DNA of 64,000 bases from a virus (Duplodnaviria > Heunggongvirae > Uroviricota > Caudoviricetes): the IMG/VR virus record IMGVR_UViG_2675903278_000002; one strand, given 5' to 3'. Both the position numbers and the translations under genes were made by a program. Below the pieces are notes generated by a model. That model was not told the origin of the DNA, did not search any database, and saw only the letters and a program-made list of their open reading frames with translations. This document shows, one piece after another, positions 6,814 through 48,621 of the stretch. Within the stretch, counting starts at the first letter, position 1. The number at the start of each line of letters is the position of its first letter.

Positions 6814-6820
6814 TAGCACC

Positions 6821-7303
6821 AACCACTGCGGTGAGTAGTCTGCTCACCGCATTCGTATCCAGCTCATTATCCACTGTAGTCAGTAACAAAACCTTCCTAC
6901 ATATCTGCTAACCACTGTAGCGAGTAGACAGCCTTTCATTCGCATCAAACAACCACTATGGTGAGTATTGGAGTGAGATGTCCAGCGGGTATCCACTATG
7001 GTGAGTAAGCCTTTGCTGTTTTCAGTGGATATCCACTCGCCACAGTGGATACGCTCAAAGATGAGGGCGACAACAACCACTATAGACAGTAAATTTTCCA
7101 AGATACCCAGTGACCACTAACCTCGCAGCCCTTGTTTCATCAGTGTTAGTGATCACTAACATTTAATTCAGTATTTGCATTCTACTGCCTACAGTGGTTA
7201 TCAACAGATAACGATACTCACTATAGTGGATAGCGAATTACAGATATAAGTAAGGCTCACTACAGTGGATAGTGAGCCTTACTACTAACTACAGTGGTTG
7301 GGC
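6821..7303. repeat. iteron array downstream of repA (about 10 copies of a ~19-bp repeat, both orientations; incA-like)
   Basis: repeated (A/T)ACCACT(A/G)T(A/G)G(T/C)GAGTA units at ~6821, 6869, 6910, 6951, 6991, 7026-7053 (palindromic pair), 7075, and inverted copies at ~7217, 7257, 7287. Confidence 0.75.
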
Positions 7304-8358
7304 TATTTGCGAGTCTTTGCCTTGCGCAACTCTTCGAGAAGCGCCAGTTCTTCTTTACTCAACATGACCATTTTGCCTTCTTTTTCGTCAGGCACAACGT
7401 CGATAATGTCATCTTGATTCTCATCTGGGAGGCTATATTCCGTCTCATCATTATCGATTTTTGTTGATATTTGTGCCTGGCGTAACTTTGGCCGCCTATA
7501 GTGGATGACGAAGTAGACCGAGTTTCCGCGCTTAACTTCCGTGTAATCGAGATATCCTATCTCTCGCAGCTGTTCCATAGCCTTTCTTACCGTCGCATTC
7601 TGAGTAATAGTGCGACTTGTCAGATTAAGTCTGGCGCGTAAACGGGCTAGTGATATTGGTGCCGGATCAGGCGGCAAACTTTCAATAAAAGTATAAAGCG
7701 CCTGAGCGGATTCTTTTCTTGAGAGTTCGTTTATAGCCCGGAGTTGCAGAAGAACCTTTTTGTCGAACTGGTAGAGTTCGAAAATCTTGGGATCTGCTTT
7801 CAGTTCGACCGTATCGTGCTTGACACTATATTTTGCCGTTTGCACAAGATGCGTTACGTAAAACTCATCAGAGCCTTTGCTACGGAACGAGATGGTATTT
7901 GTGGCAATACGGCTTAGCGAACTGTCCAGGCGTTTGCGTAACTTCGCTGATGACCTGGCGGTCGGAATGCCACACAGCCTTACAAACTCAACGAACGGCA
8001 ACGTGACAGTATCGCCAACGACCTTGTGTTTGGCAAACGCGTGGATTATTCCCACCCACGTTTTAAAGTCGTTATCCATATCAAGCCGAAGGCCAGAGAT
8101 CCTTATGTCTTCGTACCCTTCGGCTTTTGCCAGAGACAGCTGTTTGAGTTCAGCAGAGGCATCCATAGAGACCATTTGCCCCTTTCTTCCTCTGGATGTC
8201 GATTTCAGCGTCGGAACGAAGAGGCCCAGACGCATCAAAGCAACAGGCTGAACAGTGTTATTAGTGTTAGGAACCAACGTAACAACTTCGCCTGTCTTTT
8301 TATCTGTTTCTGAAAATGCTTCAACGATCGCTATGTTTTTATTGCCGTTTTCGCTCAT
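7303..8358 (-). CDS. repA: plasmid replication initiator RepA (P1 RepA / RepFIB family)
   Basis: 351 aa; recalled similarity to P1 RepA ([30 protein letters not shown]); flanked by iteron arrays. Confidence 0.8.
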
Positions 8359-8403
8359 TCCAAATGTCTCTTGTTATTCGACGGCTTTGGTGGCCTTTGC
8401 TGA

Positions 8404-8528
8404 TTACAGTGGATAGTAGCACTCATCACAGCGGTTATCCTACCGTCTATAGTGGTTTTTCTCCTCTCTATAGTGGTTGCTTTGCTCCCTATAGTGGATT
8501 ATTCGCTCTCTATAGTGGATATCGATCA
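8404..8528. repeat. six direct ~21-bp iterons immediately upstream of repA (origin/incC-like)
   Basis: TC(T/C)CTATAGTGG(A/T)T units at ~8404, 8425, 8445, 8466, 8487, 8508. Confidence 0.8.
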
Positions 8529-8559
8529 TGTCTGAAGGCAGATGGCACAACGGTTTGAG

Positions 8560-8690
8560 GTGGGCGGGGATCTTATTGGGTCTTTATGGGTCTCTTTGGT
8601 TCTCTTTGTGATCTGAATTACTGGATCGGGCCTGTGGATAAAAATCAGAGGATTTCAAGAACAGGTAACTCTACTCTTCTGTGGATATTT
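8560..8690. promoter_or_regulatory. origin-proximal region with perfect DnaA box and GATC sites
   Basis: TGTGGATAA at 8633-8641 (reverse complement of TTATCCACA); second near-box at ~8679; GATC at 8569, 8610, 8624; TCTCTTT repeats. Confidence 0.6.
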
Positions 8691-8800
8691 AAGGACATAA
8701 GAATCATGACTAAGAGTAGAGTTTAAAATATATCTATGTATATCAGTATGTTAATGAAGAATTAAGTCATTAAGTTATCCATAAAAGACAATGTGCTCTA

Positions 8801-8908
8801 CTCTCTACAGTGGATATATACAGCTCTCCAGAGTGGTTGTTTTACTCTTCATAGCGGTTATTCAGCTCTCTACAGAGGTTTCTTTGCTCTCCATAGTGGA
8901 TGGCAACA
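8801..8908. repeat. second array of five direct ~21-bp iterons
   Basis: units at ~8801, 8824, 8846, 8867, 8888, preceded by an AT-rich stretch (8690-8790). Confidence 0.7.
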
Positions 8909-8944
8909 CCCTTTCAGACCAGTAACCGCAACGGCTAGAGGCGA

Positions 8945-32436: not shown

Positions 32437-32574
32437 GCGCTACAAATCCTTCTGCATGAATAAATAAAGGCCATAACTTATGGCCTTAAATAAATTGTTT
32501 TCTACATTTTCTTATTTGTGAAAATAAACCAGCACTTGGTAGTGCTTATGTAACAGCAAAGAAGAGAAAAACAC

Positions 32575-33030
32575 ATGAGTAACAAAATCGAAAATCCCGT
32601 AGTTCTCATTCACAAGCGCGAGAACCACGACTCCTATGCGGTGGCGATCACCAATGGGAGTCACGATTTTTACGATGGCCTGCTAATGGCCTCAGTGTCG
32701 CCTGATGAGGCAGACAACTCTTTTGCCGTCTTCGCTATGGTTGGTTACTACATGGCTGCTGAAATTGAGAAGTTGCGGGCGCAGAGAGACGCATTAGCGG
32801 CGGAGAATGCAGCCCTGAAAGAATCTGAGCGAGCATTCGATGCGATGTGTGCCGAGGAACACGGAGATAATTGGGTTAGCGAATTAACGGAGACTCCAGC
32901 CACCGATGCTTTTCTGGCTGAAGTACGTGCGCAGGGCGTGGAGATGTTTGCTGAGTGCGCATACACACTTGAACATCATGATCACGCAGTAGCTTTTGCC
33001 GCTGAGCTTCGTACAGGAAATAAACAGTGA
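32575..33030 (+). CDS. hypothetical protein
   Basis: 151-aa ORF; leader AGAGAAAAACACATG. Confidence 0.5.
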   Translation: MSNKIENPVVLIHKRENHDSYAVAITNGSHDFYDGLLMASVSPDEADNSFAVFAMVGYYMAAEIEKLRAQRDALAAENAALKESERAFDAMCAEEHGDNWVSELTETPATDAFLAEVRAQGVEMFAECAYTLEHHDHAVAFAAELRTGNKQ

Positions 33031-35979: not shown

Positions 35980-37080
35980 TCACACTGCGCGGAATGCGAT
36001 TTCGCCAGGTATTACTTCACCTTGCCAATACATTTGGGCAGCAACGCGATCTGCGAGGTCACGATAAATAGCCGTAAATTCGCTATCTGGACGACTAATA
36101 ACGGTTGGTGTTCCGTTATCCAGATCTTCACGAAGAGAGATATGAAGTGGCATTTGGCCTAACAACTGCGTGTTGTATTTCTCGGCCAGTTTCTGTGCGC
36201 CACCGGTGCCAAAAATTGGCTCGTGATGACCGCAGTTACTGCAAATATGCACACTCATGTTTTCGACGATACCCAGTACCGGCACTTCGACTTTTTCGAA
36301 CATCACAATGCCTTTCTTCGCATCGATCAGCGCGATGTCTTGCGGCGTAGTTACCACAACCGCACCAGTTACAGGAATGTTCTGCGCCAGCGTCAACTGA
36401 ATATCACCAGTGCCCGGCGGCATATCGAGAACGAGATAGTCCAGATCAGGCCATAGAGTTTCCTGCAACATCTGCATCAGCGCCTTGCTGGCCATCGGTC
36501 CACGCCACACCATTGCATTGTCGTCGGTGACCAGATAACCAATAGAGTTGGTTGCCAGGCCATGAGACATGATAGGTGCCATGTGAGTACCGTCCGGTGA
36601 GGTTGGACGTTGGTTTTCCGCGCCCAGCATGGTTGGAATTGATGGACCATAGATATCGGCATCCAAAATACCAACTTTCGCACCTTCAGCAGCCAACGCC
36701 AGTGCCAGATTTACCGCCGTGGAGGATTTACCTACGCCGCCCTTGCCTGAGCTGACGGCGATAATGTTCTTAACGCCATTAATGCCTGGTTGGTTTTTGA
36801 CGCGCTTAAGCGTGGCAATGTTGTACGACAGCTTCCAGTCAATAGCCTTTGCGCCAGTGATACGGAGCAGATCACCACTACATTGCTCTTTCAGGTCTTC
36901 AAAAGGCTTATTCCACACGAAAGGCATGATTAGTTCGACATGCAGTGTGTCATCCATCAACGCAACATGGTGTAACGCTTTAAGCGTAGTCAGGTTGTGT
37001 TTCAGGGTTGGGTGCTGAAAATTAGCCAGCGTACCGGCTACCATTGCTCTCAGGGCATCCGGCGATTTGGACTCGCTCAT
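35980..37080 (-). CDS. apbC: Fe-S cluster carrier ATPase ApbC/Mrp
   Basis: 366 aa; near-identical to enterobacterial Mrp as recalled (SGKGGVGKS P-loop, CSNCGH motif); divergent from metG as in E. coli. Confidence 0.9.
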   Translation of the reverse strand: MSESKSPDALRAMVAGTLANFQHPTLKHNLTTLKALHHVALMDDTLHVELIMPFVWNKPFEDLKEQCSGDLLRITGAKAIDWKLSYNIATLKRVKNQPGINGVKNIIAVSSGKGGVGKSSTAVNLALALAAEGAKVGILDADIYGPSIPTMLGAENQRPTSPDGTHMAPIMSHGLATNSIGYLVTDDNAMVWRGPMASKALMQMLQETLWPDLDYLVLDMPPGTGDIQLTLAQNIPVTGAVVVTTPQDIALIDAKKGIVMFEKVEVPVLGIVENMSVHICSNCGHHEPIFGTGGAQKLAEKYNTQLLGQMPLHISLREDLDNGTPTVISRPDSEFTAIYRDLADRVAAQMYWQGEVIPGEIAFRAV

Positions 37081-37236
37081 CCCGTCTCCTTTATTTTAAT
37101 TTGCGCAATTGTCGCCTTGTAGTGTACTCCAGCTACGACATTTAATCATTTATGAGAAATGCTGTTATCACATGGCAGACATAAGGCCATTTTGTTACTA
37201 TCAAGCCCCTTTTCACTACAAAGAAGTAATGCCTAC

Positions 37237-39271
37237 TATGACCCAAGTCGCGAAGAAAATTCTGGTGACGTGCGCGCTGCCGTACGCTAACGGCTCAATC
37301 CACCTCGGCCATATGCTGGAGCACATCCAGGCTGATGTCTGGGTTCGTTACCAGCGAATGCGCGGCCACGAGGTTAATTTCATCTGTGCCGACGATGCCC
37401 ACGGTACGCCGATCATGCTGAAAGCACAGCAGCTTGGTATCACACCGGAGCAGATGATTGGCGAAATGAGTCAGGAACACCAGACTGATTTCGCAGGCTT
37501 TAACATCAGCTATGACAACTATCACTCGACGCACAGCGAAGAGAACCGTCAGTTGTCTGAGCTTATCTATACTCGCCTGAAAGAGAACGGTTTTATTAAA
37601 AACCGCACTATCTCTCAGTTGTACGACCCGGAAAAAGGCATGTTCCTGCCGGATCGTTTTGTAAAAGGCACCTGCCCGAAATGTAAAGCGCCAGATCAAT
37701 ACGGCGATAACTGTGAAGTCTGCGGCGCAACATATAGCCCGACTGAATTGATCGAGCCGAAATCGGTGGTTTCTGGCGCTACCCCGGTAATGCGTGATTC
37801 CGAACACTTCTTCTTTGATCTGCCTTCTTTCAGCGAAATGTTGCAGGCATGGACCCGCAGCGGCGCGTTGCAGGAGCAGGTGGCGAACAAAATGCAGGAA
37901 TGGTTTGAATCCGGCCTGCAACAGTGGGATATCTCCCGAGATGCGCCTTACTTCGGTTTTGAAATTCCGAACGCGCCGGGCAAATATTTCTACGTCTGGC
38001 TGGACGCGCCGATTGGCTACATGGGTTCCTTCAAGAATCTGTGCGACAAGCGCGGCGATACCACCAGCTTCGATGAATACTGGAAGAAAGACTCCACCGC
38101 CGAGCTGTACCACTTCATCGGTAAAGATATTGTTTACTTCCACAGCCTGTTCTGGCCTGCCATGCTGGAAGGCAGCAACTTCCGCAAGCCGACCAACCTG
38201 TTTGTTCACGGCTATGTGACGGTGAACGGCGCGAAGATGTCCAAGTCTCGCGGCACCTTTATTAAAGCCAGCACCTGGCTGAATCATTTTGACGCCGACA
38301 GCCTGCGTTACTACTACACTGCGAAACTCTCTTCGCGCATTGATGATATCGATCTCAACCTGGAGGATTTCGTTCAGCGCGTGAATGCCGATATCGTGAA
38401 CAAAGTGGTTAACCTGGCCTCCCGTAATGCAGGCTTTATCAACAAGCGTTTTGACGGCGTGCTGGCAAGCGAACTGGCTGACCCGCAACTGTACAAAACC
38501 TTTACTGATGCCGCTGAAGTGATTGGCGAAGCATGGGAAAGCCGCGAATTTGGTAAAGCTATCCGTGAAATCATGGCATTGGCTGACCTGGCTAACCGCT
38601 ATGTCGATGAACAGGCTCCGTGGGTGGTGGCGAAGCAGGAAGGACGCGATGCCGATCTGCAGGCGATTTGCTCTATGGGCATTAACCTGTTCCGCGTGCT
38701 GATGACGTACCTGAAGCCGGTACTGCCGAAACTGACTGAACGTGCAGAAGCATTCCTGAATACAGAACTGACCTGGGATGGTATCCAGCAACCGCTGCTG
38801 GGCCATAAAGTAAATCCGTTCAAGGCACTGTATAACCGCATCGATATGAAGCAGGTTGAAGCACTGGTGGAAGCATCCAAAGAAGAAGTGAAAGCCACAG
38901 CCGCACCGGTAACTGGCCCACTGGCTGACGACCCGATTCAGGAAACTATCACCTTTGACGACTTCGCCAAAGTTGACCTGCGCGTGGCGCTGATTGAAAA
39001 CGCAGAGTTTGTAGAAGGTTCTGACAAACTGCTTCGCCTGACGCTGGATCTCGGTGGTGAAAAGCGTAATGTCTTCTCAGGCATCCGTTCCGCTTATCCA
39101 GATCCACAGGCACTGATTGGTCGTCACACCATTATGGTGGCTAACCTGGCACCACGTAAAATGCGCTTCGGTATCTCTGAAGGCATGGTGATGGCTGCTG
39201 GCCCCGGCGGGAAAGATATCTTCCTGTTAAGCCCGGATGCTGGTGCTAAACCTGGCCACCAGGTTAAGTAA
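37237..39271 (+). CDS. metG: methionyl-tRNA synthetase
   Basis: 677 aa from [10 protein letters not shown]; HIGH-type [12 protein letters not shown] and KMSKS motifs; near-identical to E. coli MetG as recalled; large antisense ORF 37295..38806 rejected. Confidence 0.95.
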
Positions 39272-39319: not shown

Positions 39320-39432
39320 TATAGACACAATCCCTTCTGATTTACACAGTACCTAAAACAATTTGTTTTCTGCCTTTTGTTGATGGAGATAATAAACCAC
39401 ATAAGAAAACAACTTGTTTTGGAGTGGTTGAA

Positions 39433-39732
39433 ATGTTGAACATTACCCAAGCCTACCAGGTGGCATTGATCAGCTCATCTCATACATCAGAGGAAGATGC
39501 TCGCCGATTCATGATCGCAAGCAATGAGCTGGATTGGGTTTCACAAATTGAGTACGGTTGCATTGTCCACGCCGGGTTACAGGACGATGACTGGAAAGAT
39601 GAGTTGCGTCGATATGGTATATCCGAGGGCGCGATTGCGAACATTCAGAAAGTACTTGATGTAGGCTTTGACTCTGTACATTTTGATTGTGGTGCACCGG
39701 TCGTTGAAGGGCTAGAGTGCTGGCAATGGTAA
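39433..39732 (+). CDS. hypothetical protein (accessory cassette)
   Basis: ATG 39433, two motif A copies upstream (39356-39370, 39403-39420). Confidence 0.5.
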   Translation: MLNITQAYQVALISSSHTSEEDARRFMIASNELDWVSQIEYGCIVHAGLQDDDWKDELRRYGISEGAIANIQKVLDVGFDSVHFDCGAPVVEGLECWQW

Positions 39733-39768
39733 TCCGGCAATCGCTTCATACTAGACAACGGAGAATTT

Positions 39769-39954
39769 ATGCTTAAAGAAGACTCATATCTACTAAAGGC
39801 GCTTGAAATGCGTGGCGTTGAACCTACAGTGAAAAACGCTCACGATATCTACCTTCAGTTTTCACCGGAGCTGAAACGGTTCATAAATCAATACGGGGTT
39901 AATGACTCAAGTGTTAAAGCAATGATAGATGATGAATTAGACCATCTCATCTAA
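39769..39954 (+). CDS. hypothetical small protein
   Basis: 61-aa ORF with RBS. Confidence 0.4.
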   Translation: MLKEDSYLLKALEMRGVEPTVKNAHDIYLQFSPELKRFINQYGVNDSSVKAMIDDELDHLI

Positions 39955-40106
39955 TCGTTTCCTATGATAATGGTTTTCACTTTGAGATTGTTATTTTTCA
40001 TAGCTAAAGCTGATGTTTGTGGAAGGTGGATTGATAAACGGATGCGTATTTAGGTTATACAAGTGAGAAAATTGATAATATATAAACGCGATTTTTATGT
40101 GATGGA

Positions 40107-40676
40107 ATGGATGTGATGGAAACCCAGAACCAACAAACAAAACCTCTGAATAACATTTATGCGTGGATTCTAGCGTTCATGCCTTTCTTCTTTGGAGTAT
40201 CGCCGGAAGAGTATACCAATTACGCTATTATAATTGGGGGTGTAACTACCATCGGTTTGTTAGTAGCTGACAGAATGGCTCTATCGGAGTCTGGCTGTGA
40301 ACCACCTTCAATTCTATGGGGGGTATTCCTCCTGCCTGTCTATCTCTGGAAGCGCGCGACTATTACAAAAGGCAGCAGAGTGCCATTTATCATAATCGTT
40401 GCGTCGCTGGCTTGGATTATCTTCATCGGCATCCCACACAAGGACGAGGTTGCTCTTGAAGAAGCAGCCTGCCCTCTCGTGACAACTATTCTGAAAGAGA
40501 ATAACGGTTCGACTGCACCAAAATGTATGAAGGTGACAATAGAGGACAAGGTGACGGATAAGTTCTATAGAGCAACGGCTACACTAGACAATGGTAATGA
40601 CATTAACATTACTCTGGAACTTACCGGCGACAGGAACTTCTACGTCCGTGTTCCAAATGTTTATCTGAACAACTAA
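40107..40676 (+). CDS. hypothetical integral membrane protein (about 4 TM)
   Basis: 189 aa, four hydrophobic helices. Confidence 0.5.
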   Translation: MDVMETQNQQTKPLNNIYAWILAFMPFFFGVSPEEYTNYAIIIGGVTTIGLLVADRMALSESGCEPPSILWGVFLLPVYLWKRATITKGSRVPFIIIVASLAWIIFIGIPHKDEVALEEAACPLVTTILKENNGSTAPKCMKVTIEDKVTDKFYRATATLDNGNDINITLELTGDRNFYVRVPNVYLNN

Positions 40677-40795
40677 CGGTTGCAACTTATTGATAATGGC
40701 GGTCACAATTTGATTCTTTTCTATAAGAACCCGTTGATCGCCACTACTCCCCTCCCATACCAGCAATCACATCATTAAATATCAATAGGTTATGG

Positions 40796-41560
40796 TTGTT
40801 TATACAAATAAGAAAACAACTAAATAACAGATCAACGAAACGTCAACGCTTTCACCCGATTTGGTCTAAAAAATTGACGTTTTCACACATCACTTCTTAT
40901 ACCCGTAACTCTACGCAGCAGACATCGCCACAGCGTCCAATTTTCACCACAGACGACCCAACACACTACCAACAAAAACACACGCTCAAAATCGCTCCCG
41001 TTGCGTTACACAACCATATAAACAACTTATTTTCAGGCATAACAAAACAACTAAATAACACACATGCCATTTCCAAAAACAACCAACCTCTTTATGGCAG
41101 GCTACCGAAAAGACCCACCTCTTCTCCCCAGGCTACCGGACAACCAACCTAACTTTCACAGGCAATCCGAAAACATTCATACGCGCGATACCCACGACAC
41201 GCCATTACCCAAACAGCGAAGAAACACCAGAATCACTGAACCCCCAACGAAGCCTGTAACCGCAAGGCTTCTCTCAATCCCAAAAGACACGAAACAGAAC
41301 AATCACGGGAAACGCCATTACCCAACACACGAATAACTACAAAAGCCCTTCACGCACTCCAGACAAACAACTCAAACACAATAACGAAAGGAATCGCCCA
41401 CCTGCCATTACTCCATACACGGAGAAGAACAATCACCAAAACGACGAGAACACCCCATAGAAGAACCACCGCAAAACGAACGAAACCACATACACCGACA
41501 GAGAGAACAACACACCCAATTCACCAACAGAATTAGTCGCCGTATAGAACGTTCTGGAAG
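40796..41560. other. ~750-bp strongly strand-asymmetric C/A-rich, G-poor non-coding tract
   Basis: top strand dominated by A and C with few G; only low-complexity ORFs; internal ~30-bp repeats CAGGC(T/A)ACCG... at ~41097, 41130, 41159. Confidence 0.6.
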
Positions 41561-41747
41561 GAGTGAGTGTTAACGTCCATAGAGAGGTTGAGACAGATAA
41601 AACACGAATAAAACACAACATGTATAGCGAAGAAGCCAGGTATGTATAAGTGGGGAGAGAAGGAGGGGTGTCGCCTCCTTTTTCGTATTTATTCAACTCC
41701 TGATTTTACCCCCCGTAACACCCCTACGGTCAGCCTTCGGTCCATAC

Positions 41748-41890
41748 AGGGAAAAGGCTGCATCCCGCTACAGAAACGGCTGGGTTGCCTTCGGGGAACG
41801 GCTGGAGGTTTTCAGGGAAACGGTCGAGTTGCCTGTGTGGATTTCGGGAAAAGGCTCGATGCCGGTTCAGGAACGGTGGCGTACCGGTAT
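41748..41890. repeat. six direct repeats GG(G)AAA(A)CGGCT at ~21-22 bp periodicity
   Basis: units at ~41750, 41772, 41794, 41815, 41846, 41869; related array at 45775-45890. Confidence 0.65.
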
Positions 41891-42259
41891 AGCGTGAGGG
41901 AGAGTTGCGGCTGTCCACCTGTAATGTGCGGGAAGAAGAGAGGCGCTCACGTGCAGGCGAACTTACTTACCGCTGGATTCCCTCTGAATGCCCAGCTACA
42001 GCGTAATTGTGCCAGACAGTCAGCGGGTCACAATCGATTTCAGTAGGTTTTCGGGGAGAAGAAAATTCTGCCCACCAGCCCTGCGGCGCGCGTAGAGCAG
42101 AATATCGTAAATACTGGTTCCGTGTCGTTCCCGGATACTCACTACCCAGCCTGGCTTTCCCGACATAAAATCCTTTTCCGCCTTTGTCTTATTGCGATAA
42201 TAACACCAACAAGTAAACAACATGTTTAGACGTTATATAAACGAAGTGAGGATGAAGAG

Positions 42260-42478
42260 ATGATTAAGATGCCTGTGACGGTTGAGGTGTGGGGCGTGGA
42301 TTCCCTGGCTGAGTGTCTGGATGCAGTGGGGCCGGAGTTGTACCGCAAGTTGTGGTCGTTCGTCCCGGCAGAAGGGGAATCGCCCAAAGGGAAGGATATC
42401 TGGCACCTGCTGAGTGAAGATGAAAAGCGGGAGCTGGTGGACGCGGTACACAGCGAGTTCCCGGGCGACGAAGATTAA
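42260..42478 (+). CDS. hypothetical small acidic protein (cassette)
   Basis: 72 aa; motif A at 42211-42228; terminator hairpin GGCCACCAGCACGGTGGC after stop. Confidence 0.5.
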   Translation: MIKMPVTVEVWGVDSLAECLDAVGPELYRKLWSFVPAEGESPKGKDIWHLLSEDEKRELVDAVHSEFPGDED

Positions 42479-42616
42479 GAGTGAGGCCACCAGCACGGTG
42501 GCTTTTGTCGCTATTAACCTCCGGGCAGCGCAGCACCGTAACGATATACTTTGTGGCCGTTTTCTTACTGGTATTGTTTACGCAATTCAGAAAACAACAT
42601 GTTTAAGGATTGCGTT

Positions 42617-42946
42617 ATGTTTGCAAATATCGACATCAACCAAATCAAGAAAATGACTCAAAAAGAGTTTGACCAGTTTTATGAGTTAGAAGGTTGGTCT
42701 TCCACTCTGATCAATTCGCGGTGGGTGCTTGAGCTGATGACTCGTGATGACGCACCTGCTTTGATGATTTGCGACATGGGTGAAGATGCTGACTTTATGG
42801 ATATGAGCGAATTTTGTGTGGACACATACAACCGCAGCCAGAAGTACTACTTCACATGCGATAGCGAAAATGACGTGATTTCTAAGGTCTATCTTCACCT
42901 CGTCCAGCATTGGGACGTTCAGGAGTTTCTTGAAGTATTCGAGTAA
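42617..42946 (+). CDS. hypothetical protein (cassette)
   Basis: 109 aa from ATG 42617; motif A at 42588-42606; hairpin after stop. Confidence 0.5.
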   Translation: MFANIDINQIKKMTQKEFDQFYELEGWSSTLINSRWVLELMTRDDAPALMICDMGEDADFMDMSEFCVDTYNRSQKYYFTCDSENDVISKVYLHLVQHWDVQEFLEVFE

Positions 42947-43099
42947 CCCCAACCAAAGCCAGCATTGCTGGCTTAATTTCTCTATAGCCGCAGGGAAGAA
43001 CCTGCATATCGCTCATGCACCTGATCAATATGCTTTGTAGCCGTTTTCTTACTGGTATTATTTACGCCATTGAGAAAACAAGTTGTTTACGGAGTTGTG

Positions 43100-43411
43100 A
43101 TGAAAAAATCATTGGTTCTTGGTCTGGACAAAGACCAGAAGAGAAAAGAGAAGCCTGCGCTGGTTGCTCAATTAACTTTGCTGGACATCGTTGCCAATGG
43201 AACCTCTATTCGTCTGTTCCGTGAAACAGCGGTGTCTTTCGATAAAAACACCTTTACTCGTTATGTAATGAATGTTCGTCGCCAGCGTGGAAAAGGCTGG
43301 GTGGCATTTCAAAGAATGTGGCCGGAACATCAGCTCGAACTGGCTTTGATGGAAGTTAACCGCGTGGCCCAGCAAGAGATTCAGAGAGCATCAGTGATGG
43401 CAATAGCCTGA
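43100..43411 (+). CDS. hypothetical protein (cassette)
   Basis: 103 aa from ATG 43100; motif A at 43072-43090; upstream ~65 bp homologous to the 42541-42606 region. Confidence 0.5.
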   Translation: MKKSLVLGLDKDQKRKEKPALVAQLTLLDIVANGTSIRLFRETAVSFDKNTFTRYVMNVRRQRGKGWVAFQRMWPEHQLELALMEVNRVAQQEIQRASVMAIA

Positions 43412-43445
43412 TAATGTGCAAGTGGTAATTAGTCGACAGTACGAC

Positions 43446-43474
43446 AGCCCCGCCATCCTTACGGGGCTTTTTTG
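43446..43474 (+). terminator. Rho-independent terminator
   Basis: AGCCCCG-CCATCCTTA-CGGGGCT then TTTTT. Confidence 0.65.
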
Positions 43475-43537
43475 TATTGTAAGTACATACTTATGATCAT
43501 AGAATATAAAAATAACCAAAACACTACGGAGAGTGAA

Positions 43538-43933
43538 ATGACCGTTAAACGCGAAAAACTGACAGTTGATGTTTACTATGCCTCTGAAACCGCCGAAGGT
43601 AAGAATGTGGCAAAAATCACCGTTGTTACGTACAACACCGAAACTGGTGCCGAAGTCCAGGCCAGTACGATCGTGCGTAAAGGTGATGCCTCCGACGGCG
43701 AGTACGCGACTCAATACCAGTCCATTCTCGATGCAACTGACCCGCTGCTGCTGAAAATCGAGAACTACTTCCGCCAGGTTGATGAAGAGGTGTTTGAAAC
43801 CATGATGAATATGGTTAACACCGTATTCGCCTCCAACCTGAATACCAACACTACCTGGATTGGTCAGTACGGCCTGCGCATTACCTCTGGCATTCCTGCC
43901 GACACCTTAATCCCTGAAAGCGTATTCGCTTAA
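43538..43933 (+). CDS. hypothetical protein (cassette)
   Basis: 131 aa from ATG 43538; hairpin AAATGGCGCG-TAAA-CCGCGCCATTT after stop. Confidence 0.5.
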   Translation: MTVKREKLTVDVYYASETAEGKNVAKITVVTYNTETGAEVQASTIVRKGDASDGEYATQYQSILDATDPLLLKIENYFRQVDEEVFETMMNMVNTVFASNLNTNTTWIGQYGLRITSGIPADTLIPESVFA

Positions 43934-44050
43934 TCCTCTTTAAATGGCGCGTAAACCGCGCCATTTTCTTATGCCCGATAACAATTTGTTTTCTGCCTTA
44001 TCTGATTTGTGAAAATGATTTCACTGAAGCAACTTAATAAGGAAACCATC

Positions 44051-44425
44051 ATGGGACTTGATATCTATATCGAGACACAGCCTAAAAACGATCTGAATAA
44101 CGAGGCATCCAGAAAGCAGGTTGCTTACTTCCGTAAGTTCAATGCGCTCGTTGGGTGGATGGAGCGCAACGTAGGTGAAGTCGAAAATTGTGAGCTTTTA
44201 GAATTAACGATGAATGACATTTGTTTTCTGAAGGCTCATTTGATGCACATAAACGAAAGTAATTGCGAAGAGTACTTGCCTACCCGGGAAGGTTTTTTCT
44301 TCGGCAGTCAGGAGTACGATGAAGGTTACTGGCATGATGTGGGGCAGTTGAAAGAGCTTGTGGAAGATCTGATTAAGAACCACGACTTTCACAATAACAG
44401 ACTGACCTTCTGCGCCTGGTGGTAA
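44051..44425 (+). CDS. hypothetical protein (cassette)
   Basis: 124 aa from ATG 44051; motif A variant at ~43981-43993. Confidence 0.5.
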   Translation: MGLDIYIETQPKNDLNNEASRKQVAYFRKFNALVGWMERNVGEVENCELLELTMNDICFLKAHLMHINESNCEEYLPTREGFFFGSQEYDEGYWHDVGQLKELVEDLIKNHDFHNNRLTFCAWW

Positions 44426-44427
44426 AT

Positions 44428-44571
44428 ATGGGCGATTTCAAGAAACGCCTGAAGGAAAGAGCCGAGATGGTCAGAAAGCAAAACGCCTCTTCTGTCATCA
44501 GATACGCAAGGCAGTTTAGTCGCAACAACAAATCAGTTGAGGAAAAGATCCTTAGCGTAATCGGTCGATAA
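44428..44571 (+). CDS. hypothetical small basic protein (47 aa)
   Basis: not in ORF track (below 60 aa); ATG 2 nt after upstream stop; followed by conserved terminator hairpin at ~44577-44610. Confidence 0.35.
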   Translation: MGDFKKRLKERAEMVRKQNASSVIRYARQFSRNNKSVEEKILSVIGR

Positions 44572-44760
44572 TTATTAAGGCCACCAGCATTGGTGGTCTT
44601 AAATGACTTTTAATAACCGAAGGTTAGTTTGAAACCTGGCTATCAACTTCCAGAACCTTTCTTGTGTATTCAGCCTGTATTAACTTCTTTTATGCCTTAT
44701 CTACACTGCGATAATTACACCAACAAGAAAACAACATGTTTACGCAGTGAGGATATGCTC

Positions 44761-45042
44761 ATGACTGATTTCACCATTACCCCTAAAGCACAAAATGTAT
44801 TTCTTGAATCATGGCTGGACTTGCCGGAAACAGAACAGCAAGAAATGGATCATGTGGATTATGACGAGCAGGTAAGCACGCGATTCTTCCACTTTGAGGG
44901 ATGCGTTTACGACATTGCTGACTTCATGCGAGATGACCGCTTCCCTGAATGGCACGCCAGTTATCCACTAAACGCCTTTGCCATGCTGATGATCCGTGTG
45001 GATGATTCAGGGGATACCATCGACATCGGTCTGCTCCACTAA
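44761..45042 (+). CDS. hypothetical acidic protein (cassette)
   Basis: 93 aa from ATG 44761 (RBS GAGGA); motif A at 44726-44743; hairpin GGCCACCAATGCTGGTGGCC after stop. Confidence 0.5.
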   Translation: MTDFTITPKAQNVFLESWLDLPETEQQEMDHVDYDEQVSTRFFHFEGCVYDIADFMRDDRFPEWHASYPLNAFAMLMIRVDDSGDTIDIGLLH

Positions 45043-45079
45043 AGATTAAGGCCACCAATGCTGGTGGCCTTAAATGACC

Positions 45080-45180
45080 ATCCTGTTTCCCGCAGGCTAA
45101 AAACACCAACCTCTTACCTCCAGGCAACCGACAAACCCACCTGTTCCCGTCCGGCTACCGCAACTTTCCACTTTGACGCC
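45080..45180. repeat. C/A-rich tract with three ~30-bp CAGGC(T/A)A(C/A)CG repeats (short copy of the 40796-41560 tract)
   Basis: units at ~45093, 45121, 45152 resembling those at 41097-41170. Confidence 0.55.
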
Positions 45181-45246
45181 TTATTCGTACAACGATAATT
45201 AACACCAACAAGAAAACAATTTGTTATTTACGATAAGGAATTAATC

Positions 45247-45729
45247 ATGAATTTTATCGCTACTGTAAACGCACCCGCACATGGCAATATCGCTGTAACG
45301 TTCTCTGACATTGAAAAACGAGTACTTGGTGCATGGCGCGACAATGAGACGGTAGAACTGTCAGCACAAGAAAAATGCATTATTGCACGCGACATCATTG
45401 GCAATCGTCGTTACTCGCGGGTATTTGAGAAAGCGTATGTGGTAAATTCTGGGTTCGGAACGTTCGTCTTTCCGGTGCGCTCCGGGCGATTCTGCCAGTC
45501 CAAGCTGATTGAGTTCGCTACGCAGATTTCTGTCTGGATTAAAACTCAATCGTCGTTCAAATTTTCCGACGATGAAGCAGTATCGCAGGGGATGCGGATC
45601 GCCAACAATGCGATTAAATGCAAAAACATTACGTATACCGCTGGCGTTGATACATGGAAACTGTTTTGCGCTAACTTTATGCTGAATGTATACGCAAGCA
45701 ACCGCATCCACATCCTTGATGGCGTGTAA
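45247..45729 (+). CDS. hypothetical protein
   Basis: 160-aa ORF; motif A at 45210-45227; terminator hairpin ~45735-45757. Confidence 0.5.
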   Translation: MNFIATVNAPAHGNIAVTFSDIEKRVLGAWRDNETVELSAQEKCIIARDIIGNRRYSRVFEKAYVVNSGFGTFVFPVRSGRFCQSKLIEFATQISVWIKTQSSFKFSDDEAVSQGMRIANNAIKCKNITYTAGVDTWKLFCANFMLNVYASNRIHILDGV

Positions 45730-45774
45730 CTGAGAAGAGGGCCAGAAACGGCCCTTTCTCTATAGCCACCAGCT

Positions 45775-45890
45775 GCCGCAGGGAAATTTTCAGAAACGGC
45801 GAGGAACGTATTCATAAGCCGACGGGAAACGGCCAGGATTTTTTCGGGAAACGGCTGCATTCGCCTTTATGTAGAAAAAAACATCGGGAA
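45775..45890. repeat. second array of GGGAAACGGC-type direct repeats
   Basis: units at ~45778, 45791, 45822, 45845, 45884, same family as 41748-41890. Confidence 0.6.
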
Positions 45891-46346
45891 GCTGGTGGAA
45901 TCCAACCAGCGGTTGTCGGACAGGCGAGCGGGGAAAATTATGATGACTTTCGTCGCCTGAGACATCCAGATTTCTTTCGTAGCATAATCACATACGTGAT
46001 TAAGTGGTGTGATTATGTGAAAAATCACGCGCACATAATACGCGAGCGGATACGGAACAAAACAAAATGCCGATCCGCGCCGACAAATAAACGCGGATCA
46101 CATAGCAAGAATAAAAGCCAATGATTAGCCATACGTTATAGCGCAATATAACGCATTTTAAGCGCGTTAATGTGCTAAGTAATGGGTATGTACTGGTAAG
46201 GATATAAAAGCGCGTCTATGGCGTTATTTTGGCGCTTATTTTTATGTTGTTGGAGTGAGTTAAAGACAATAAAAAACGCGCCATCATTGGCGCGCTATGG
46301 TGGGAGTATTGGAAACGAAAAAAGCGCCCATAGTGGGCGCTCGATT

Positions 46347-46577
46347 TTATTTGTGTAAACTGATTTTAAATCCCATTTCTACAAACGCTTTTAACATTAA
46401 AAATATATCAGCGTCGTTGATTCCAATATCCGAACGCTCAATATCATTTAATAAATCAATTTTACGCGTTGTTTCATCGATAAACTCGACTGAGCGCCCA
46501 GCGTAACCAGCGATCCCAGCGATGCGATTAACAAAATATTCATTGCGCACGTTAACGCCAGCGATAAGAACAAACAT
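46347..46577 (-). CDS. hypothetical protein (low-GC island)
   Basis: 76 aa; strong RBS AAGGAG; AT-rich codon usage. Confidence 0.45.
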   Translation of the reverse strand: MFVLIAGVNVRNEYFVNRIAGIAGYAGRSVEFIDETTRKIDLLNDIERSDIGINDADIFLMLKAFVEMGFKISLHK

Positions 46578-48096: not shown

Positions 48097-48621
48097 TCAA
48101 AAAGGCAAAATTCGTTCAACCCAATCGAACAAAACAACTATTTTTCTACCGTTCTCGACACGTAGTGTAACCTGACAAGCATCTGCGCCTGCTGACACCC
48201 CCTCAATTTCACGGCCATCCGCCATGTACACCCTTATAGATTTGTTTGCTTTGTAGGCTTGGTTGCAAATTGCAAAAAAATCGCGGCGTGATGGCCGATT
48301 ATCGACATAATCAGGGTGAACTGTTAGTCGACCTTTGAAATCGTGAGCGATACTGTCAACCACACCTGATTCAATTGTACTAATGCGTTCAAGTGGGAGC
48401 CTTATACGATTTTCTTTGTCAAAAGGGGCTGGGCAAAGGTCAACTTTGTTACGAGATGGCATGAGGCCATAAACGTACATGCAAAACGCCTGGCCATCTT
48501 CGAGAGTGACCCTTACAGGAATTTGTTCTCTGCGCCAGAACATCAGTAGTTTTTCAACGTTAGTGTAATCTCGCGGCCAGAGTTCAGCTTGGATACCGTA
48601 GGTAATATCTTTGGTTGTCAT
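48097..48621 (-). CDS. hypothetical protein
   Basis: 174 aa from internal Met chosen to avoid overlap with upstream lipoprotein gene; start uncertain. Confidence 0.4.
   Translation of the reverse strand: MTTKDITYGIQAELWPRDYTNVEKLLMFWRREQIPVRVTLEDGQAFCMYVYGLMPSRNKVDLCPAPFDKENRIRLPLERISTIESGVVDSIAHDFKGRLTVHPDYVDNRPSRRDFFAICNQAYKANKSIRVYMADGREIEGVSAGADACQVTLRVENGRKIVVLFDWVERILPF

What the first reader, a model, noticed from the sequence alone, without database searches (positions are those of the whole stretch)
39350..45765. Array of small accessory gene cassettes sharing promoter motif and terminator hairpins
Between metG and the minus-strand block lie at least eleven small ORFs (47-189 aa), most preceded by motif A and followed by their own hairpin. 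Several terminators are near-identical (GGCCACCAGCA..TGGTGGCC at ~42487, ~44579, ~45049, each followed by TTAAATGAC), and ~65-bp upstream regions at 42541-42606 and 43027-43092 are homologous. This promoter-ORF-terminator unit repeated in series resembles phage early or moron arrays where anti-defense and host-takeover genes accumulate. None of the proteins carries a motif I recognise, so the array is the most likely place for undescribed functions, and the shared flanks suggest cassette shuffling.
Basis: partly seen in the sequence, partly recalled or inferred. Interest (0 to 1): 0.6.

Follow-up and report, generated by a model that had tools for sequence, protein, structure and literature searches.

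The report
Swappable small-gene hotspot in a phage-plasmid
This stretch of an SSU5/pHCM2-type E. coli phage-plasmid is a very plastic hotspot of eleven small genes of unknown function, each unit with its own promoter, shared control site and hairpin, and relatives show that whole genes are gained and lost exactly at those shared sequences.

Summary
The window is an SSU5/pHCM2-type phage-plasmid of E. coli.

"Motif A" is a 13-15 bp dyad, AAAACAA-N-TTGTTT. It sits about 10 nt after a -10 hexamer. It is not specific to the cassettes: a complete 112-kb relative has 19 sites, 9 of them in this array.

Among 60 related loci there are 37 different gene orders. Deletion junctions fall exactly inside motif A (loss of P4, or of P4+P5) or inside the near-identical hairpin (loss of P10). 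Those hairpins carry Chi octamers.

P4, P6, P7, P10 and P11 are conserved across most of the family; the other genes are variable.

No protein has a known function. P7 and P11 give confident structure models with no known structural relative. Published RNA-seq of a relative shows most array genes near-silent in the lysogen.

Anti-defence or host-takeover roles remain plausible but untested. A full-length FljA homologue 2.4 kb away is a candidate regulator.

I classify this as a new variant of a known kind (phage moron or accessory-gene hotspot).

The parts
39352..39420 (+). P1 promoter module. Two inverted copies of the dyad (39355-39371 and 39404-39420) flank a -10 hexamer GATAAT (39388-39393).
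   Evidence: (I9: 17 nt, 94% complementary).
39433..39732 (+). P1, 99 aa, acidic. Carries a DUF5983 C-terminal domain (the YeeW-like family found downstream of cbtA in CP4-44-type islands). Its alleles vary among relatives (31-100% identity).
   Evidence: Pfam 7.5e-13.
39769..39954 (+). P2, 61 aa, second gene of the P1 unit; present in only some relatives.
   Evidence: The T7 gp5.9 hit is below the Pfam cut-off (16.9 vs 24.5 bits).
40107..40676 (+). P3, 189 aa, with hydrophobic stretches suggesting a membrane protein. It has no motif A upstream and is variable among relatives.
   Evidence: Membrane topology is read from the sequence, not computed.
40677..42195 (.). Conserved non-coding block. 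It contains a hairpin at 40697-40743, a promoter-like TTGACG-18-TATACC at about 40873-40902, a 640-nt A+C-rich tract at 40900-41540 (A 40%, C 34%), three ~30-nt repeats at 41076-41172, the left copy of a ~110-nt repeat with GGGAAACGG motifs at about 41733-41850, and a Chi(-) site at 42072.
   Evidence: Not annotated in RefSeq. About 77% identical to SSU5, with indels that are not multiples of 3. 70-85% identical across the family. Composition; repeats. Rfam finds nothing.
42165..42228 (+). P4 promoter module: GATAAT at 42196-42201, dyad at 42212-42227.
   Evidence: (D4). In P4-less relatives this module is fused at the dyad to the P5 or P6 leader.
42260..42478 (+). P4, 72 aa, acidic. Conserved in most of the family, but deleted in many close E. 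coli relatives.
42486..42502 (+). Hairpin after P4 with a U tract. Its left arm holds a Chi octamer on the minus strand (42487-42494).
42533..42609 (+). P5 promoter module (dyad at 42589-42604), 84% identical to the P6 module.
   Evidence: D7.
42617..42946 (+). P5, 109 aa, very acidic (pI 4.2), found only in the E. coli clade. Followed by a hairpin at 42956-42974.
   Evidence: The multicystatin hit was rejected.
43017..43093 (+). P6 promoter module (dyad at 43073-43088).
43100..43411 (+). P6, 103 aa, basic (pI 10.5), family-wide. Followed by a canonical terminator at 43446-43474.
43477..43505 (+). Sigma-70-like promoter of P7 (TTGTAA-17-TAGAAT), without the dyad.
43538..43933 (+). P7, 131 aa, acidic, family-wide but divergent (36-98% identity). 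Followed by a hairpin at 43942-43966.
43976..44016 (+). P8 promoter, a second promoter class: an inverted dyad at the -35 position plus TGTGAAAAT. It is homologous to the promoter at 32490-32530.
   Evidence: In relatives the same upstream half belongs to the P10 promoter.
44051..44425 (+). P8, 124 aa, acidic. Found in the E. coli clade and some Klebsiella elements. Homologues at about 31% identity occur on Gram-positive plasmids.
44428..44571 (+). P9, 47 aa, basic (pI 11), not annotated in RefSeq. Its Cyrano homologue CYRAN_109 is about 10-fold more expressed than P8 in the lysogen.
   Evidence: PMC9928086 S1 table.
44575..44602 (+). Hairpin after P9, without a proper U tract. It carries Chi(-) at 44581-44588 and is the left partner of the 39-nt repeat that brackets the P10 cassette.
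   Evidence: (D10, I1).
44679..44742 (+). P10 promoter module: GATAAT at 44710-44715, dyad at 44726-44741.
44761..45042 (+). P10, 93 aa, very acidic (pI 4.1). Family-wide, including Yersinia pMT1, but precisely deleted in about 20 close E. coli relatives.
45046..45073 (+). Hairpin after P10, carrying Chi(+) at 45060-45067. It is the right partner of the repeat.
45071..45164 (+). Three ~30-nt repeats (ACCnACCT..CAGGCTACCG), paralogous to those at 41076-41172.
   Evidence: D2. Conserved at 72-81% in all relatives, including pMT1.
45171..45226 (+). P11 promoter module: TTGACG at 45173-45178, GATAAT at 45194-45199, dyad at 45211-45226.
45247..45729 (+). P11, 160 aa, basic. It was the search anchor and is present in all 83 related loci retrieved with it. 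Followed by a hairpin at 45732-45761.
45764..45870 (+). Right copy of the ~110-nt GGGAAACGG repeat element, with Chi(-) at 45766-45773. Together with the left copy it brackets P4-P11.
   Evidence: (D11).
48097..48621 (-). Full-length FljA homologue. It lies outside the finding's coordinates and is a candidate regulator acting on the dyad motif.
   Evidence: Pfam PF03614 2.5e-84, plus a weak Hfq-like hit. 36% identical to Salmonella FljA. Present in 82 of 88 loci.

Best explanation
**What it is.** The region is the small-gene hotspot of an SSU5/pHCM2-type phage-plasmid. It holds nine independent transcription units that encode 11 small, mostly acidic proteins without known relatives. A conserved 1.5-kb non-coding block interrupts them.

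**Anatomy of a unit.**
- Each unit starts with a -10 hexamer (GATAAT or TATTAT).
- About 10 nt downstream lies a 13-15 bp dyad, AAAACAA-N-TTGTTT. In a second promoter class the dyad sits at the -35 position instead.
- Next come a short leader with a Shine-Dalgarno site and one or two genes.
- The unit ends in a G+C-rich hairpin.

**Regulation.**
- The dyad also precedes replication, nucleotide-metabolism, partition and terminase operons of the element.
- The array therefore looks like part of one element-wide regulon (inferred).
- The most likely controller is a factor encoded by the element itself. The FljA homologue 2.4 kb away is the leading but unproven candidate.
- In the plasmid-prophage state most of these genes are nearly silent (shown for the relative Cyrano).
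- They would then be expressed on induction, on infection or under particular conditions (inferred).

**Cassette exchange.**
- The promoter/operator modules (16-77 bp) and the hairpins (28-39 bp, several holding Chi octamers) are repeated in direct orientation.
- Recombination between them removes, adds or replaces whole genes in register and always leaves a complete promoter-leader or a complete hairpin.
- Junction sequences in relatives show this directly.
- Host RecBCD acting at Chi, or the element's own recombination proteins (annotated UvsY recombination mediator, RecA and T4 gp32-like SSB in Cyrano), could drive it (inferred).

**Protein function.** What the proteins do is not shown. The best guess is that they act on the host early in infection or induction (host takeover, counter-defence, exclusion). 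The family-wide genes P4, P6, P7, P10 and P11 would be a fixed core, and the rest a changing periphery.
For: **Identity of the element**
- 245 E. coli plasmids of about 100-115 kb match the region and no chromosome does.
- Phages Cyrano, CMS-2020a, PhiR41_1, Klebsiella pJN2-26 and SSU5 also match.

**Genes**
- All 11 ORFs show a third-position substitution excess.
- Each of the ten scanned (all but the 47-aa P9) falls in a PHROG of unknown function.

**Motif**
- 25 hits against 1.05 expected.
- Among 307 unique instances in 88 loci the pattern is AGAAAACAA-N-TTGTTT, with a free centre base. Position 11 is T in 259 of 307 although it was not part of the search pattern.
- The dyad lies 10-11 nt after the -10 hexamer in all six array promoters, whereas its distance to the ATG varies from 11 to 32 nt.
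- A complete 112-kb relative has 19 sites. Nine are in the array and none lies in the tail/capsid block.

**Plasticity**
- Presence/absence matrix and spacing.
- 37 architectures in 60 loci.
- Hybrid hairpin at the P10 deletion.
- Promoter fusions at the dyad where P4, or P4+P5, are lost.
- P8-P9 inserted at GCCTTATCT inside the ancestral P10 promoter, and other ORFs inserted between the dyad and P10.
- Of 20 alternative cassette ORFs, only 4 have Pfam hits.

**Chi**
- 19 in the window against 1.47 expected.
- 7 of them fall within 3.8 kb of the array (binomial P = 7e-5).
- The clustering is also seen in distant relatives.

**Expression**
- Cyrano S1 table in PMC9928086.
Against: - No transcription start or end has been mapped.
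- The consensus promoter scan found no sigma-70 site at any dyad-bearing module, and fewer sites overall than chance (7 against 11.4). The -35 elements are weak.
- The P9 and P10 hairpins lack U tracts, so they may not terminate transcription.
- In Cyrano, P9 is about 10-fold more expressed than P8, which does not fit a simple two-gene operon.
- The parA operon carries the dyad yet is expressed in the lysogen. The dyad alone therefore does not dictate silence.
- The dyad is absent from the intergenic region next to the annotated master repressor CYRAN_45, and the protein that binds it is unknown.
- No protein gave any hit to a known anti-defence, defence or host-takeover family.
- Five of the 11 genes are family core rather than accessory.
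Confidence: 0.7

Rival explanations
1. The dyad works in RNA rather than DNA. It would be a 5'-leader operator bound by the element's FljA homologue. That protein would repress translation (and destabilise the mRNA) of about 19 units, as Salmonella FljA does with fliC mRNA.
For: - A full-length FljA homologue lies at 48097-48621(-): Pfam 2.5e-84, with a weak Hfq/Sm-like hit in its C-terminal part. It is 36% identical to Salmonella FljA over its full length and is present in 82 of 88 loci.
[quoted passage not shown] S1; bioRxiv 10.1101/2025.10.27.684867).
- The Salmonella fliC leader contains CAAGTTGT, identical to the dyad core, ending 19 nt before the ATG and just upstream of the Shine-Dalgarno site. 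The chance of such a match in a 62-nt leader is about 0.003.
- With the -10 hexamer 10 nt upstream, the dyad would lie at about +3 to +20 of the mRNA.
- About 15 of 19 sites have the asymmetric AG flank on the sense strand.
Against: - The dyad symmetry runs right up to a single free centre base (A9 and T11 are conserved). That fits a dimer on double-stranded DNA and cannot all pair in an RNA hairpin.
- Copies sit at -35, outside the predicted transcript, for P1, P8 and the gene at 32575.
- The spacing is fixed relative to the -10 hexamer, not to the ribosome-binding site.
- The E. coli K-12 fliC leader lacks the core.
- The flanks of the fliC site differ from the motif.
- No binding data exist.
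Confidence: 0.35
2. The array is mainly a set of conserved core early genes needed for the element's own lytic or plasmid cycle, not an accessory or counter-defence collection. On this view the variability is peripheral noise.
For: - P6, P7, P10, P11 and P4 keep their order and length in the Salmonella, Klebsiella, Kluyvera and Buttiauxella relatives; only P10 and P11 persist in the Yersinia pMT1-type loci.
- They share the dyad with replication and nucleotide-metabolism operons.
- P7 and P11 fold confidently.
- The flanking non-coding elements are conserved too.
Against: - P10 and P4 are cleanly deleted in many otherwise near-identical E. coli elements, so they are dispensable for maintenance.
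- pMT1 lacks P4-P7.
- P5, P8, P9, P2 and P3 are restricted to a clade.
- More than 20 alternative genes occupy the same slots.
Confidence: 0.25
3. The units are lysogenic-conversion morons. They would be expressed from the resident plasmid-prophage to benefit or protect the host, for example by superinfection exclusion through the membrane protein P3.
For: - Promoter-gene-terminator units are inserted between conserved genes.
- CYRAN_109 (P9) and CYRAN_102 (an alternative cassette in the P2/P3 slot) are listed as morons, 6-fold above local background in the LF82 lysogen (PMC9928086).
- P3 has hydrophobic stretches suggesting a membrane protein, and several alternative cassettes begin with signal-peptide or lipoprotein-like sequences (read from the translations).
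Against: - In the same data set P1, P5, P6, P7, P8 and P10 sit at or near the detection floor in the lysogen (5.7-17 normalised counts), and P11 is only moderate at 25.
- Only P2 (GC 0.39) and P4 (GC 0.58) deviate from the local G+C of about 0.46.
Confidence: 0.15
4. The cassettes move by a dedicated site-specific system, as in integrons, with the hairpins serving as attC-like sites for a tyrosine recombinase.
For: - Cassette boundaries fall in imperfect palindromes.
- The element encodes a tyrosine recombinase elsewhere.
Against: - Every unit has its own promoter, whereas integron cassettes are promoterless.
- Half of the junctions lie in the promoter dyad, not in hairpins.
- Only two hairpins resemble each other.
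- The integrase is more than 50 kb away, next to the putative repressor.
- Junctions are consistent with plain recombination between 16-39 bp direct repeats, and the hairpins contain Chi.
Confidence: 0.03

Closest known systems
Morons of lambdoid phages (HK97/HK022 concept of Juhala, Hendrix and colleagues; cited from my own knowledge)
   Same: - Extra genes form autonomous promoter-gene-terminator units between conserved genes.
- They are present in some relatives and absent from others.
- Most have unknown function.
   Different: - Most units here are near-silent in the lysogen.
- They share one operator with the element's replication and packaging operons.
- Nine units are stacked in series.
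- Boundaries coincide with repeated regulatory sequences, so exchange happens in register.
- Only two genes deviate in G+C.
P1 C1 regulon: a phage-plasmid with many dispersed operators (from my own knowledge)
   Same: - Both are phage-plasmids in which one short operator sequence is scattered over the genome at or just after many promoters, tying dispersed operons to one regulator.
   Different: - The P1 operator is an asymmetric 17-mer and is bound by the lysogeny repressor.
- Here the site is a perfect dyad and is absent next to the annotated repressor gene.
- At least the parA operon with the site is expressed in the lysogen.
- The regulator here is unknown.
Anti-defence islands: plasmid leading regions, the P1 dar operon, T-even and T5 early regions (from my own knowledge)
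   Same: - Clusters of small, often acidic, fast-turning-over genes of unknown function in a mobile element.
- The SSU5 group has few recognisable anti-defence systems (bioRxiv 10.1101/2025.09.12.675607), so its counter-defence genes are still to be found.
   Different: - No member here matches a known anti-defence family.
- There are no ssDNA promoters and no ssb/psiB/ardA neighbours.
- Neither expression timing nor function has been tested.
Integron cassette arrays
   Same: - A serial array of small genes, mostly without known relatives, with palindromic sequences at cassette ends and high turnover.
   Different: - No adjacent integrase, attI or attC architecture.
- Each unit has its own promoter.
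- Junctions also fall in promoter dyads.
- Exchange is consistent with homologous recombination or slippage.
Salmonella FljA and the fliC leader
   Same: - The element encodes a full-length FljA homologue.
- The 8-nt core of the dyad (CAAGTTGT) occurs in the Salmonella fliC leader at a similar distance from the ribosome-binding site.
   Different: - FljA has one known target, an mRNA.
- Here there are about 19 sites with extended dyad symmetry, and some lie outside transcripts.
- The link rests on sequence only.

Membership tests
Phage moron (Hendrix/Juhala sense) | Autonomous unit with its own promoter and terminator | tested here: inconclusive
   - -10 hexamers and stable hairpins flank 8 of the 9 units.
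- The promoter consensus scan does not pick these sites.
- Two hairpins lack U tracts.
- No start or end mapping exists.
Phage moron (Hendrix/Juhala sense) | Present in some close relatives and absent from others, between conserved genes | tested here: met
   - P2, P3, P4, P5, P8, P9 and P10 vary among relatives.
- 37 architectures in 60 loci.
Phage moron (Hendrix/Juhala sense) | Expressed from the repressed prophage | tested here: not met
   - In the Cyrano lysogen RNA-seq only the P9 homologue and CYRAN_102 exceed the authors' moron cut-off.
- P1, P5-P8 and P10 are near the floor (PMC9928086).
- The data come from a relative, not from this element.
Phage moron (Hendrix/Juhala sense) | Base composition different from neighbouring genes | tested here: not met
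   - The genes have G+C of 0.43-0.49, like the window (about 0.46).
- Exceptions are P2 (0.39) and P4 (0.58).
Integron cassette array | IntI integrase with attI and the Pc promoter next to the array | tested here: not met
   - No recombinase is annotated between apbC/metG and the helicase.
- The element's tyrosine recombinase is more than 50 kb away.
Integron cassette array | Promoterless cassettes, each ending in an attC site | tested here: not met
   - Units carry their own -10 hexamer and dyad modules.
- Only two hairpins are alike.
- Junctions also fall in promoter dyads.
Known anti-defence protein families | Significant sequence or fold similarity to a characterised anti-defence protein | tested here: not met
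   - Pfam, NCBIfam, PADLOC and PHROGs give no significant functional hit.
- The T7 gp5.9 hit for P2 is below the cut-off.
- The CARF hint for P7 is lost with a profile.
- No dedicated anti-defence HMM library was available.
Dispersed-operator regulon (P1 C1 type) | The same operator at many promoters across the element | tested here: met
   - 19 sites in a complete 112-kb relative against 0.4 hits in shuffles.
- 25 hits against 1.05 expected in the window.
Dispersed-operator regulon (P1 C1 type) | Cognate repressor identified and shown to bind | not testable with these tools
   - The only candidate is the FljA homologue.
- The dyad is absent next to the annotated repressor CYRAN_45.
FljA-controlled target | FljA family protein encoded by the element | tested here: met
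   - PF03614 at 2.5e-84.
- 36% identity to Salmonella FljA over its full length.
FljA-controlled target | Target site like the one in the fliC leader | tested here: inconclusive
   - The core CAAGTTGT is shared with the Salmonella fliC leader, 19 nt before the ATG.
- The flanks differ.
- The E. coli K-12 leader lacks it.
- I did not have the published FljA footprint.
Chi recombination hotspot | Exact GCTGGTGG, over-represented | tested here: met
   - 19 against 1.47 expected in the window.
- 7 within 42072-45898, P = 7e-5.
- 4 lie in or next to cassette hairpins.
- The clustering is conserved in relatives.
Chi recombination hotspot | RecBCD-dependent stimulation of recombination at these sites | not testable with these tools
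   Needs genetics (recB, recD and Chi-mutant constructs).

The most novel reading that the evidence does not exclude
SSU5-type phage-plasmids may run a home-made cassette system. A regulatory dyad at the 5' end of each unit and Chi-bearing hairpins at the 3' end would double as portable recombination sites. New small genes could then be swapped in register under the control of one FljA-type regulator. The cargo, including the fold-orphans P7 and P11, would be previously undescribed counter-defence or host-takeover proteins. The conserved A+C-rich non-coding block and the paired GGGAAACGG repeats that bracket P4-P11 would be functional parts of the same module.
Probability: 0.2. Interest if true: 0.8.

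Novelty: new variant of a known kind. Interest (0 to 1): 0.55.

Why it matters
- SSU5/pHCM2-type phage-plasmids are common in E. coli, Shigella, Klebsiella, S. Typhi and Y. pestis (pMT1). They carry resistance genes, yet almost no known anti-defence genes are found in them (bioRxiv 10.1101/2025.09.12.675607).
- This locus is the obvious place to look. It offers about 30 small gene families with natural presence/absence variants that can be compared directly.
- The junction data show a simple way in which regulatory sequences and Chi-containing hairpins can act as the seams of gene exchange, so that every new arrival is automatically wired into the element's regulon.
- If the FljA link holds, a protein known for a single target in flagellar phase variation would turn out to be the regulator of a mobile-element-wide programme.
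- The conserved 1.5-kb non-coding block is an unexplained element shared by most of the family (it is missing from the pMT1-type loci).

Tried and rejected
- **P2 as a T7 gp5.9-like RecBCD inhibitor.** 16.9 bits against a cut-off of 24.5, over 17 residues only. Not accepted.
- **P5 as a cystatin.** The whole-sequence E of 1e-4 to multicystatin is the sum of three repeat hits of 5-9 bits each. Rejected.
- **P10 in other phage types.** Only SSU5-type records match.
- **The non-coding repeats as RepA iterons or the plasmid origin.** repA is at 7303-8358 and its iterons are CTATAGTGGAT-type, which are unrelated.
- **The dyad as the operator of the annotated lysogeny repressor.** It is absent from the CYRAN_45/46 intergenic region, which has GGTAAGnnCTTACC instead.
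- **Known RNA families.** None reaches gathering score. At E<=1 only chance-level hits appear.
- **tRNA genes as integration targets.** None in the window.
- **E. coli K-12 fliC leader as a second FljA-type site.** The core is not present.
- **Literature.** The J. Bacteriol. 2006 FljA paper was not held. No paper in the library links FljA with SSU5-type elements. A 2026 preprint on phage-plasmid copy number concerns another family.
- **AFDB Foldseek.** The library was unavailable.
- **First codon-position count.** It was mis-registered and was redone correctly.

Full report
**What the window is**

The finding region matches 245 E. coli plasmids of about 100-115 kb and no chromosome. It also matches phages Cyrano, CMS-2020a and PhiR41_1 and, more distantly, Klebsiella pJN2-26 and Salmonella SSU5. 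Annotated relatives show the context.
- The element is a phage-plasmid with repA plus iterons, nrdAB, thyA, dfrA51, rnhA, a theta subunit, apbC and metG.
- The array of hypothetical proteins follows metG.
- After the array comes a minus-strand block that ends in a DEAD-box helicase, then two ParB-like genes, terminase, portal and tail genes.

The region is therefore part of an SSU5/pHCM2-type phage-plasmid, not an island integrated next to a chromosomal metG.

**Check of the observation**

Eleven + strand ORFs of 47-189 aa are present. RefSeq annotates ten of them; the 47-aa P9 is missing there but is annotated in Cyrano. Among related loci, all eleven show 52-72% of their substitutions at third codon positions. 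They behave as protein-coding genes.

The motif AGAAAACAAnnTGTTT occurs 25 times in the window against 1.05 expected.
- It lies directly upstream of P1, P4, P5, P6, P10 and P11.
- An inverted copy sits in the -35 area of P1 and P8.
- P2 and P9 are second genes of two-gene units.
- P3 and P7 have other promoter-like sequences.

Hairpins of -13 to -21 kcal/mol follow P3, P4, P5, P6, P7, P9, P10 and P11. The upstream regions of P5 and P6 are 84% identical over 77 nt.

Two details of the finding are inexact.
- Only the P9 and P10 hairpins are near-identical and followed by TTAAATGAC. They lack a U tract, so they may not be terminators.
- 40677-42195 is not gene array but a conserved non-coding block.

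**What motif A is**

From 307 unique instances in 88 loci the pattern is AGAAAACAA-N-TTGTTT(a/t). This is a 13-15 bp perfect dyad with a free centre base. Position 11 is T in 259 of 307 instances although it was not part of the search pattern.

In the six array promoters the dyad starts 10-11 nt after a -10 hexamer (GATAAT or TATTAT). Its distance to the ATG varies from 11 to 32 nt. That places it at about +3 to +20 of the predicted transcripts.

A second promoter class puts an inverted copy at -35, followed by TGTGAAAAT. It is seen at P8 and at the gene at 32575.

The motif is not a cassette feature.
- It precedes nrdB, the TerB gene, the terminase operon and others in the window.
- It precedes parA, the replicative helicase and cobT in Cyrano.
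- A reconstructed complete relative of 112 kb has 19 sites. Nine are in the array and none lies in the tail/capsid block.
- It is absent next to the annotated lysogeny repressor CYRAN_45, where a different palindrome is found.

The symmetry through the centre, the fixed spacing to the -10 hexamer and the copies at -35 favour an operator on double-stranded DNA. Against this, about 15 of 19 sites carry the asymmetric AG flank on the sense strand, which points to a link with transcription direction or with the RNA.

**A candidate regulator**

A gene 2.4 kb beyond the array (48097-48621, minus strand) encodes a full-length member of the FljA family.
- It matches PF03614 at 2.5e-84, with a weak Hfq-like hit in its C-terminal part.
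- The family is small, with 26 cluster representatives in 1.84 billion proteins. It includes Salmonella FljA at 36% identity.
- The gene is present in 82 of 88 related loci.

[quoted passage not shown] I recovered the Salmonella fliC leader from metagenome contigs. It contains CAAGTTGT, identical to the core of the dyad, ending 19 nt before the ATG. The E. coli K-12 leader does not contain it.

This is a lead, not a demonstration. No paper in the library connects FljA with these elements.

**Comparative anatomy**

Using P11 as anchor I fetched 83 related loci.
- P6, P7, P10, P11 and usually P4 are found in the Salmonella, Klebsiella, Kluyvera and Buttiauxella elements.
- Yersinia pMT1 keeps only P10 and P11.
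- P5, P8, P9 and metG are confined to the E. coli clade. P8 also occurs in some Klebsiella elements.
- P1, P2 and P3 come and go, and P1 exists as alleles of 31-100% identity.
- Sixty loci that span the array show 37 different architectures.

The junctions are informative.
- About 20 close relatives lack P10. There the P9-P11 spacing equals the P10-P11 spacing, and the junction is one hybrid hairpin. This is the outcome expected from recombination between the two 39-nt hairpin repeats 471 bp apart.
- Relatives without P4, or without P4 and P5, have the P4-type promoter joined exactly at the dyad to the P5 or P6 leader.
- In the ancestral arrangement the P7 terminator is followed by a two-operator promoter driving P10. 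In this window P8-P9 sit inside that promoter, with GCCTTATCT at both edges.
- Other relatives have different small ORFs between the dyad and P10, or a longer ORF (at least 232 aa) in place of P10.

A survey of unassigned ORFs in the array across loci found more than 20 plausible alternative cassettes. Of 20 scanned, only four hit Pfam: GIY-YIG, DUF7706, beta-flower and an HD domain.

**Chi**

The near-identical hairpins contain the Chi octamer.
- The window has 19 Chi sites against 1.47 expected.
- Seven lie within 42072-45898 (binomial P = 7e-5).
- Four of those are in or next to cassette hairpins.
- The local excess is also seen in distant relatives.

Chi in the seams could stimulate RecBCD-dependent exchange there, or protect the DNA. 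Either role is inference.

**The proteins**

Each of the ten proteins scanned (all but the 47-aa P9) falls in a PHROG of unknown function.
- P1 carries the DUF5983 C-terminal domain. This is the YeeW-like family found downstream of cbtA in CP4-44-type islands, of unknown function.
- Nothing significant appears in NCBIfam or PADLOC.
- Eight of the eleven proteins are acidic (pI 4.1-5.0); P6, P9 and P11 are basic.
- Sequence searches of P1, P3, P5, P6, P8 and P10 against PDB gave nothing credible.
- P8 has 31% homologues on Gram-positive plasmids. P3 and P10 stay within this element family.

**Expression in a relative**

In E. coli LF82 carrying Cyrano, overnight LB cultures give these normalised counts:

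| Gene or region | Count |
|---|---|
| P1 | 7.5 |
| P5 | 12.8 |
| P6 | 12.2 |
| P7 | 17.0 |
| P8 | 5.7 |
| P10 | 6.7 |
| P11 | 25.5 |
| P9 | 57.9 |
| Alternative cassette CYRAN_102 | 56.9 |
| ORF called inside the A+C-rich block (CYRAN_103) | about 5 (detection floor) |

Most array genes rise by 2-4 log2 units in other conditions of that study (PMC9928086 S1 table). Cyrano is induced by ciprofloxacin. So most of the array is not classic lysogenic-conversion cargo.

**The non-coding block**

Positions 40677-42195 have no annotated gene in RefSeq.
- The block aligns with SSU5 at about 77% identity, with indels that are not multiples of three.
- It is 70-85% identical across the family, except in pMT1, which lacks it.
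- It holds a 640-nt tract with 74% A+C.
- It holds three ~30-nt repeats that recur between P10 and P11.
- It holds a ~110-nt element with GGGAAACGG motifs. A second copy lies just after P11, so the two copies bracket P4-P11.
- These motifs are not the RepA iterons, and no Rfam family matches.

Its role is unexplained. Possibilities are a lytic origin, a protein-binding platform, or an RNA made only after induction.

**Verdict**

Three points need change:
- The motif is an element-wide operator.
- About half of the genes are family core.
- The moron and anti-defence labels are unproven.

The locus is a new variant of a known kind of feature, a phage accessory-gene hotspot. It stands out for its seams (a regulatory dyad and Chi hairpins), its density of proteins without known relatives, and a possible FljA-type regulator.

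Noticed in passing
window 48097-48621 (-): Full-length FljA (repressor of phase-1 flagellin) homologue in the minus-strand block, conserved in 82 of 88 related loci. The Salmonella fliC leader carries the 8-nt core of the dyad motif. Such elements (for example pHCM2 in S. Typhi) might therefore also affect host flagellin expression.
   Followed up: partly
whole window; 42072-45898 in particular: Chi (GCTGGTGG) occurs 19 times against 1.47 expected in the window, in both orientations, with a roughly six-fold local peak in the array. Several copies are embedded in hairpin stems.
   Followed up: partly
window 40677-42195: A conserved 1.5-kb non-coding block with a 640-nt tract of 74% A+C. It is not transcribed detectably in the Cyrano lysogen. 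It is lost in Yersinia pMT1 together with P4-P7. Its function is unknown.
   Followed up: partly
window 41733-41850 and 45764-45870; 41076-41172 and 45071-45164: Two pairs of paralogous non-coding elements in direct orientation: a ~110-nt element with GGGAAACGG motifs, and triplets of ~30-nt repeats. Both pairs are conserved in SSU5, and the first pair brackets P4-P11.
   Followed up: partly
window 44428-44571 (P9) versus 44051-44425 (P8): In published Cyrano RNA-seq the 47-aa P9 homologue is about 10-fold more abundant than the upstream P8 in the lysogen. This suggests an internal promoter or a stable 3' fragment ending at the Chi hairpin.
   Followed up: no
window 6818-7299 and 8396-8922, flanking repA (7303-8358, -): Two arrays of RepA-type iterons (CTATAGTGGAT core, some at 21-bp spacing). 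This is presumably the plasmid origin and its control locus.
   Followed up: no
window 32490-32530 and 43976-44016: A second promoter class shared by P8 and the gene at 32575: an inverted dyad half, about 10 nt, then TTTGTGAAAAT, placed directly after a terminator hairpin.
   Followed up: partly
window 35980-39271 and upstream: The element carries its own copies of housekeeping genes: apbC, metG (E. coli clade only), nrdAB, thyA, dfrA51, rnhA, a theta subunit and an S24 peptidase. In close relatives, but not in this window, a type I restriction-modification system is inserted upstream of the theta-subunit gene.
   Followed up: no
window 46268-46334 (+): Weak Rfam hit to the Hfq-regulated sRNA Hrs1 (28.3 bits against a gathering score of 56.4, E 0.024), just upstream of and slightly overlapping the minus-strand ORF at 46297-46506. 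Probably chance.
   Followed up: no
L082:3421-4485, L045:4907-5614, L059:3803-4108 (-), L086:8025-8213 (-): Relatives carry other cargo in the same hotspot: a GIY-YIG endonuclease-domain ORF, an HD-domain (HD_4) protein between metG and P1, a beta-flower protein and a DUF7706 protein.
   Followed up: partly
L009 and L011 (Yersinia pestis NCTC5923, one 108-kb contig): P10-P11 homologues appear at both ends of the same pMT1 contig. This suggests a duplication or an assembly overlap of the circular plasmid.
   Followed up: no
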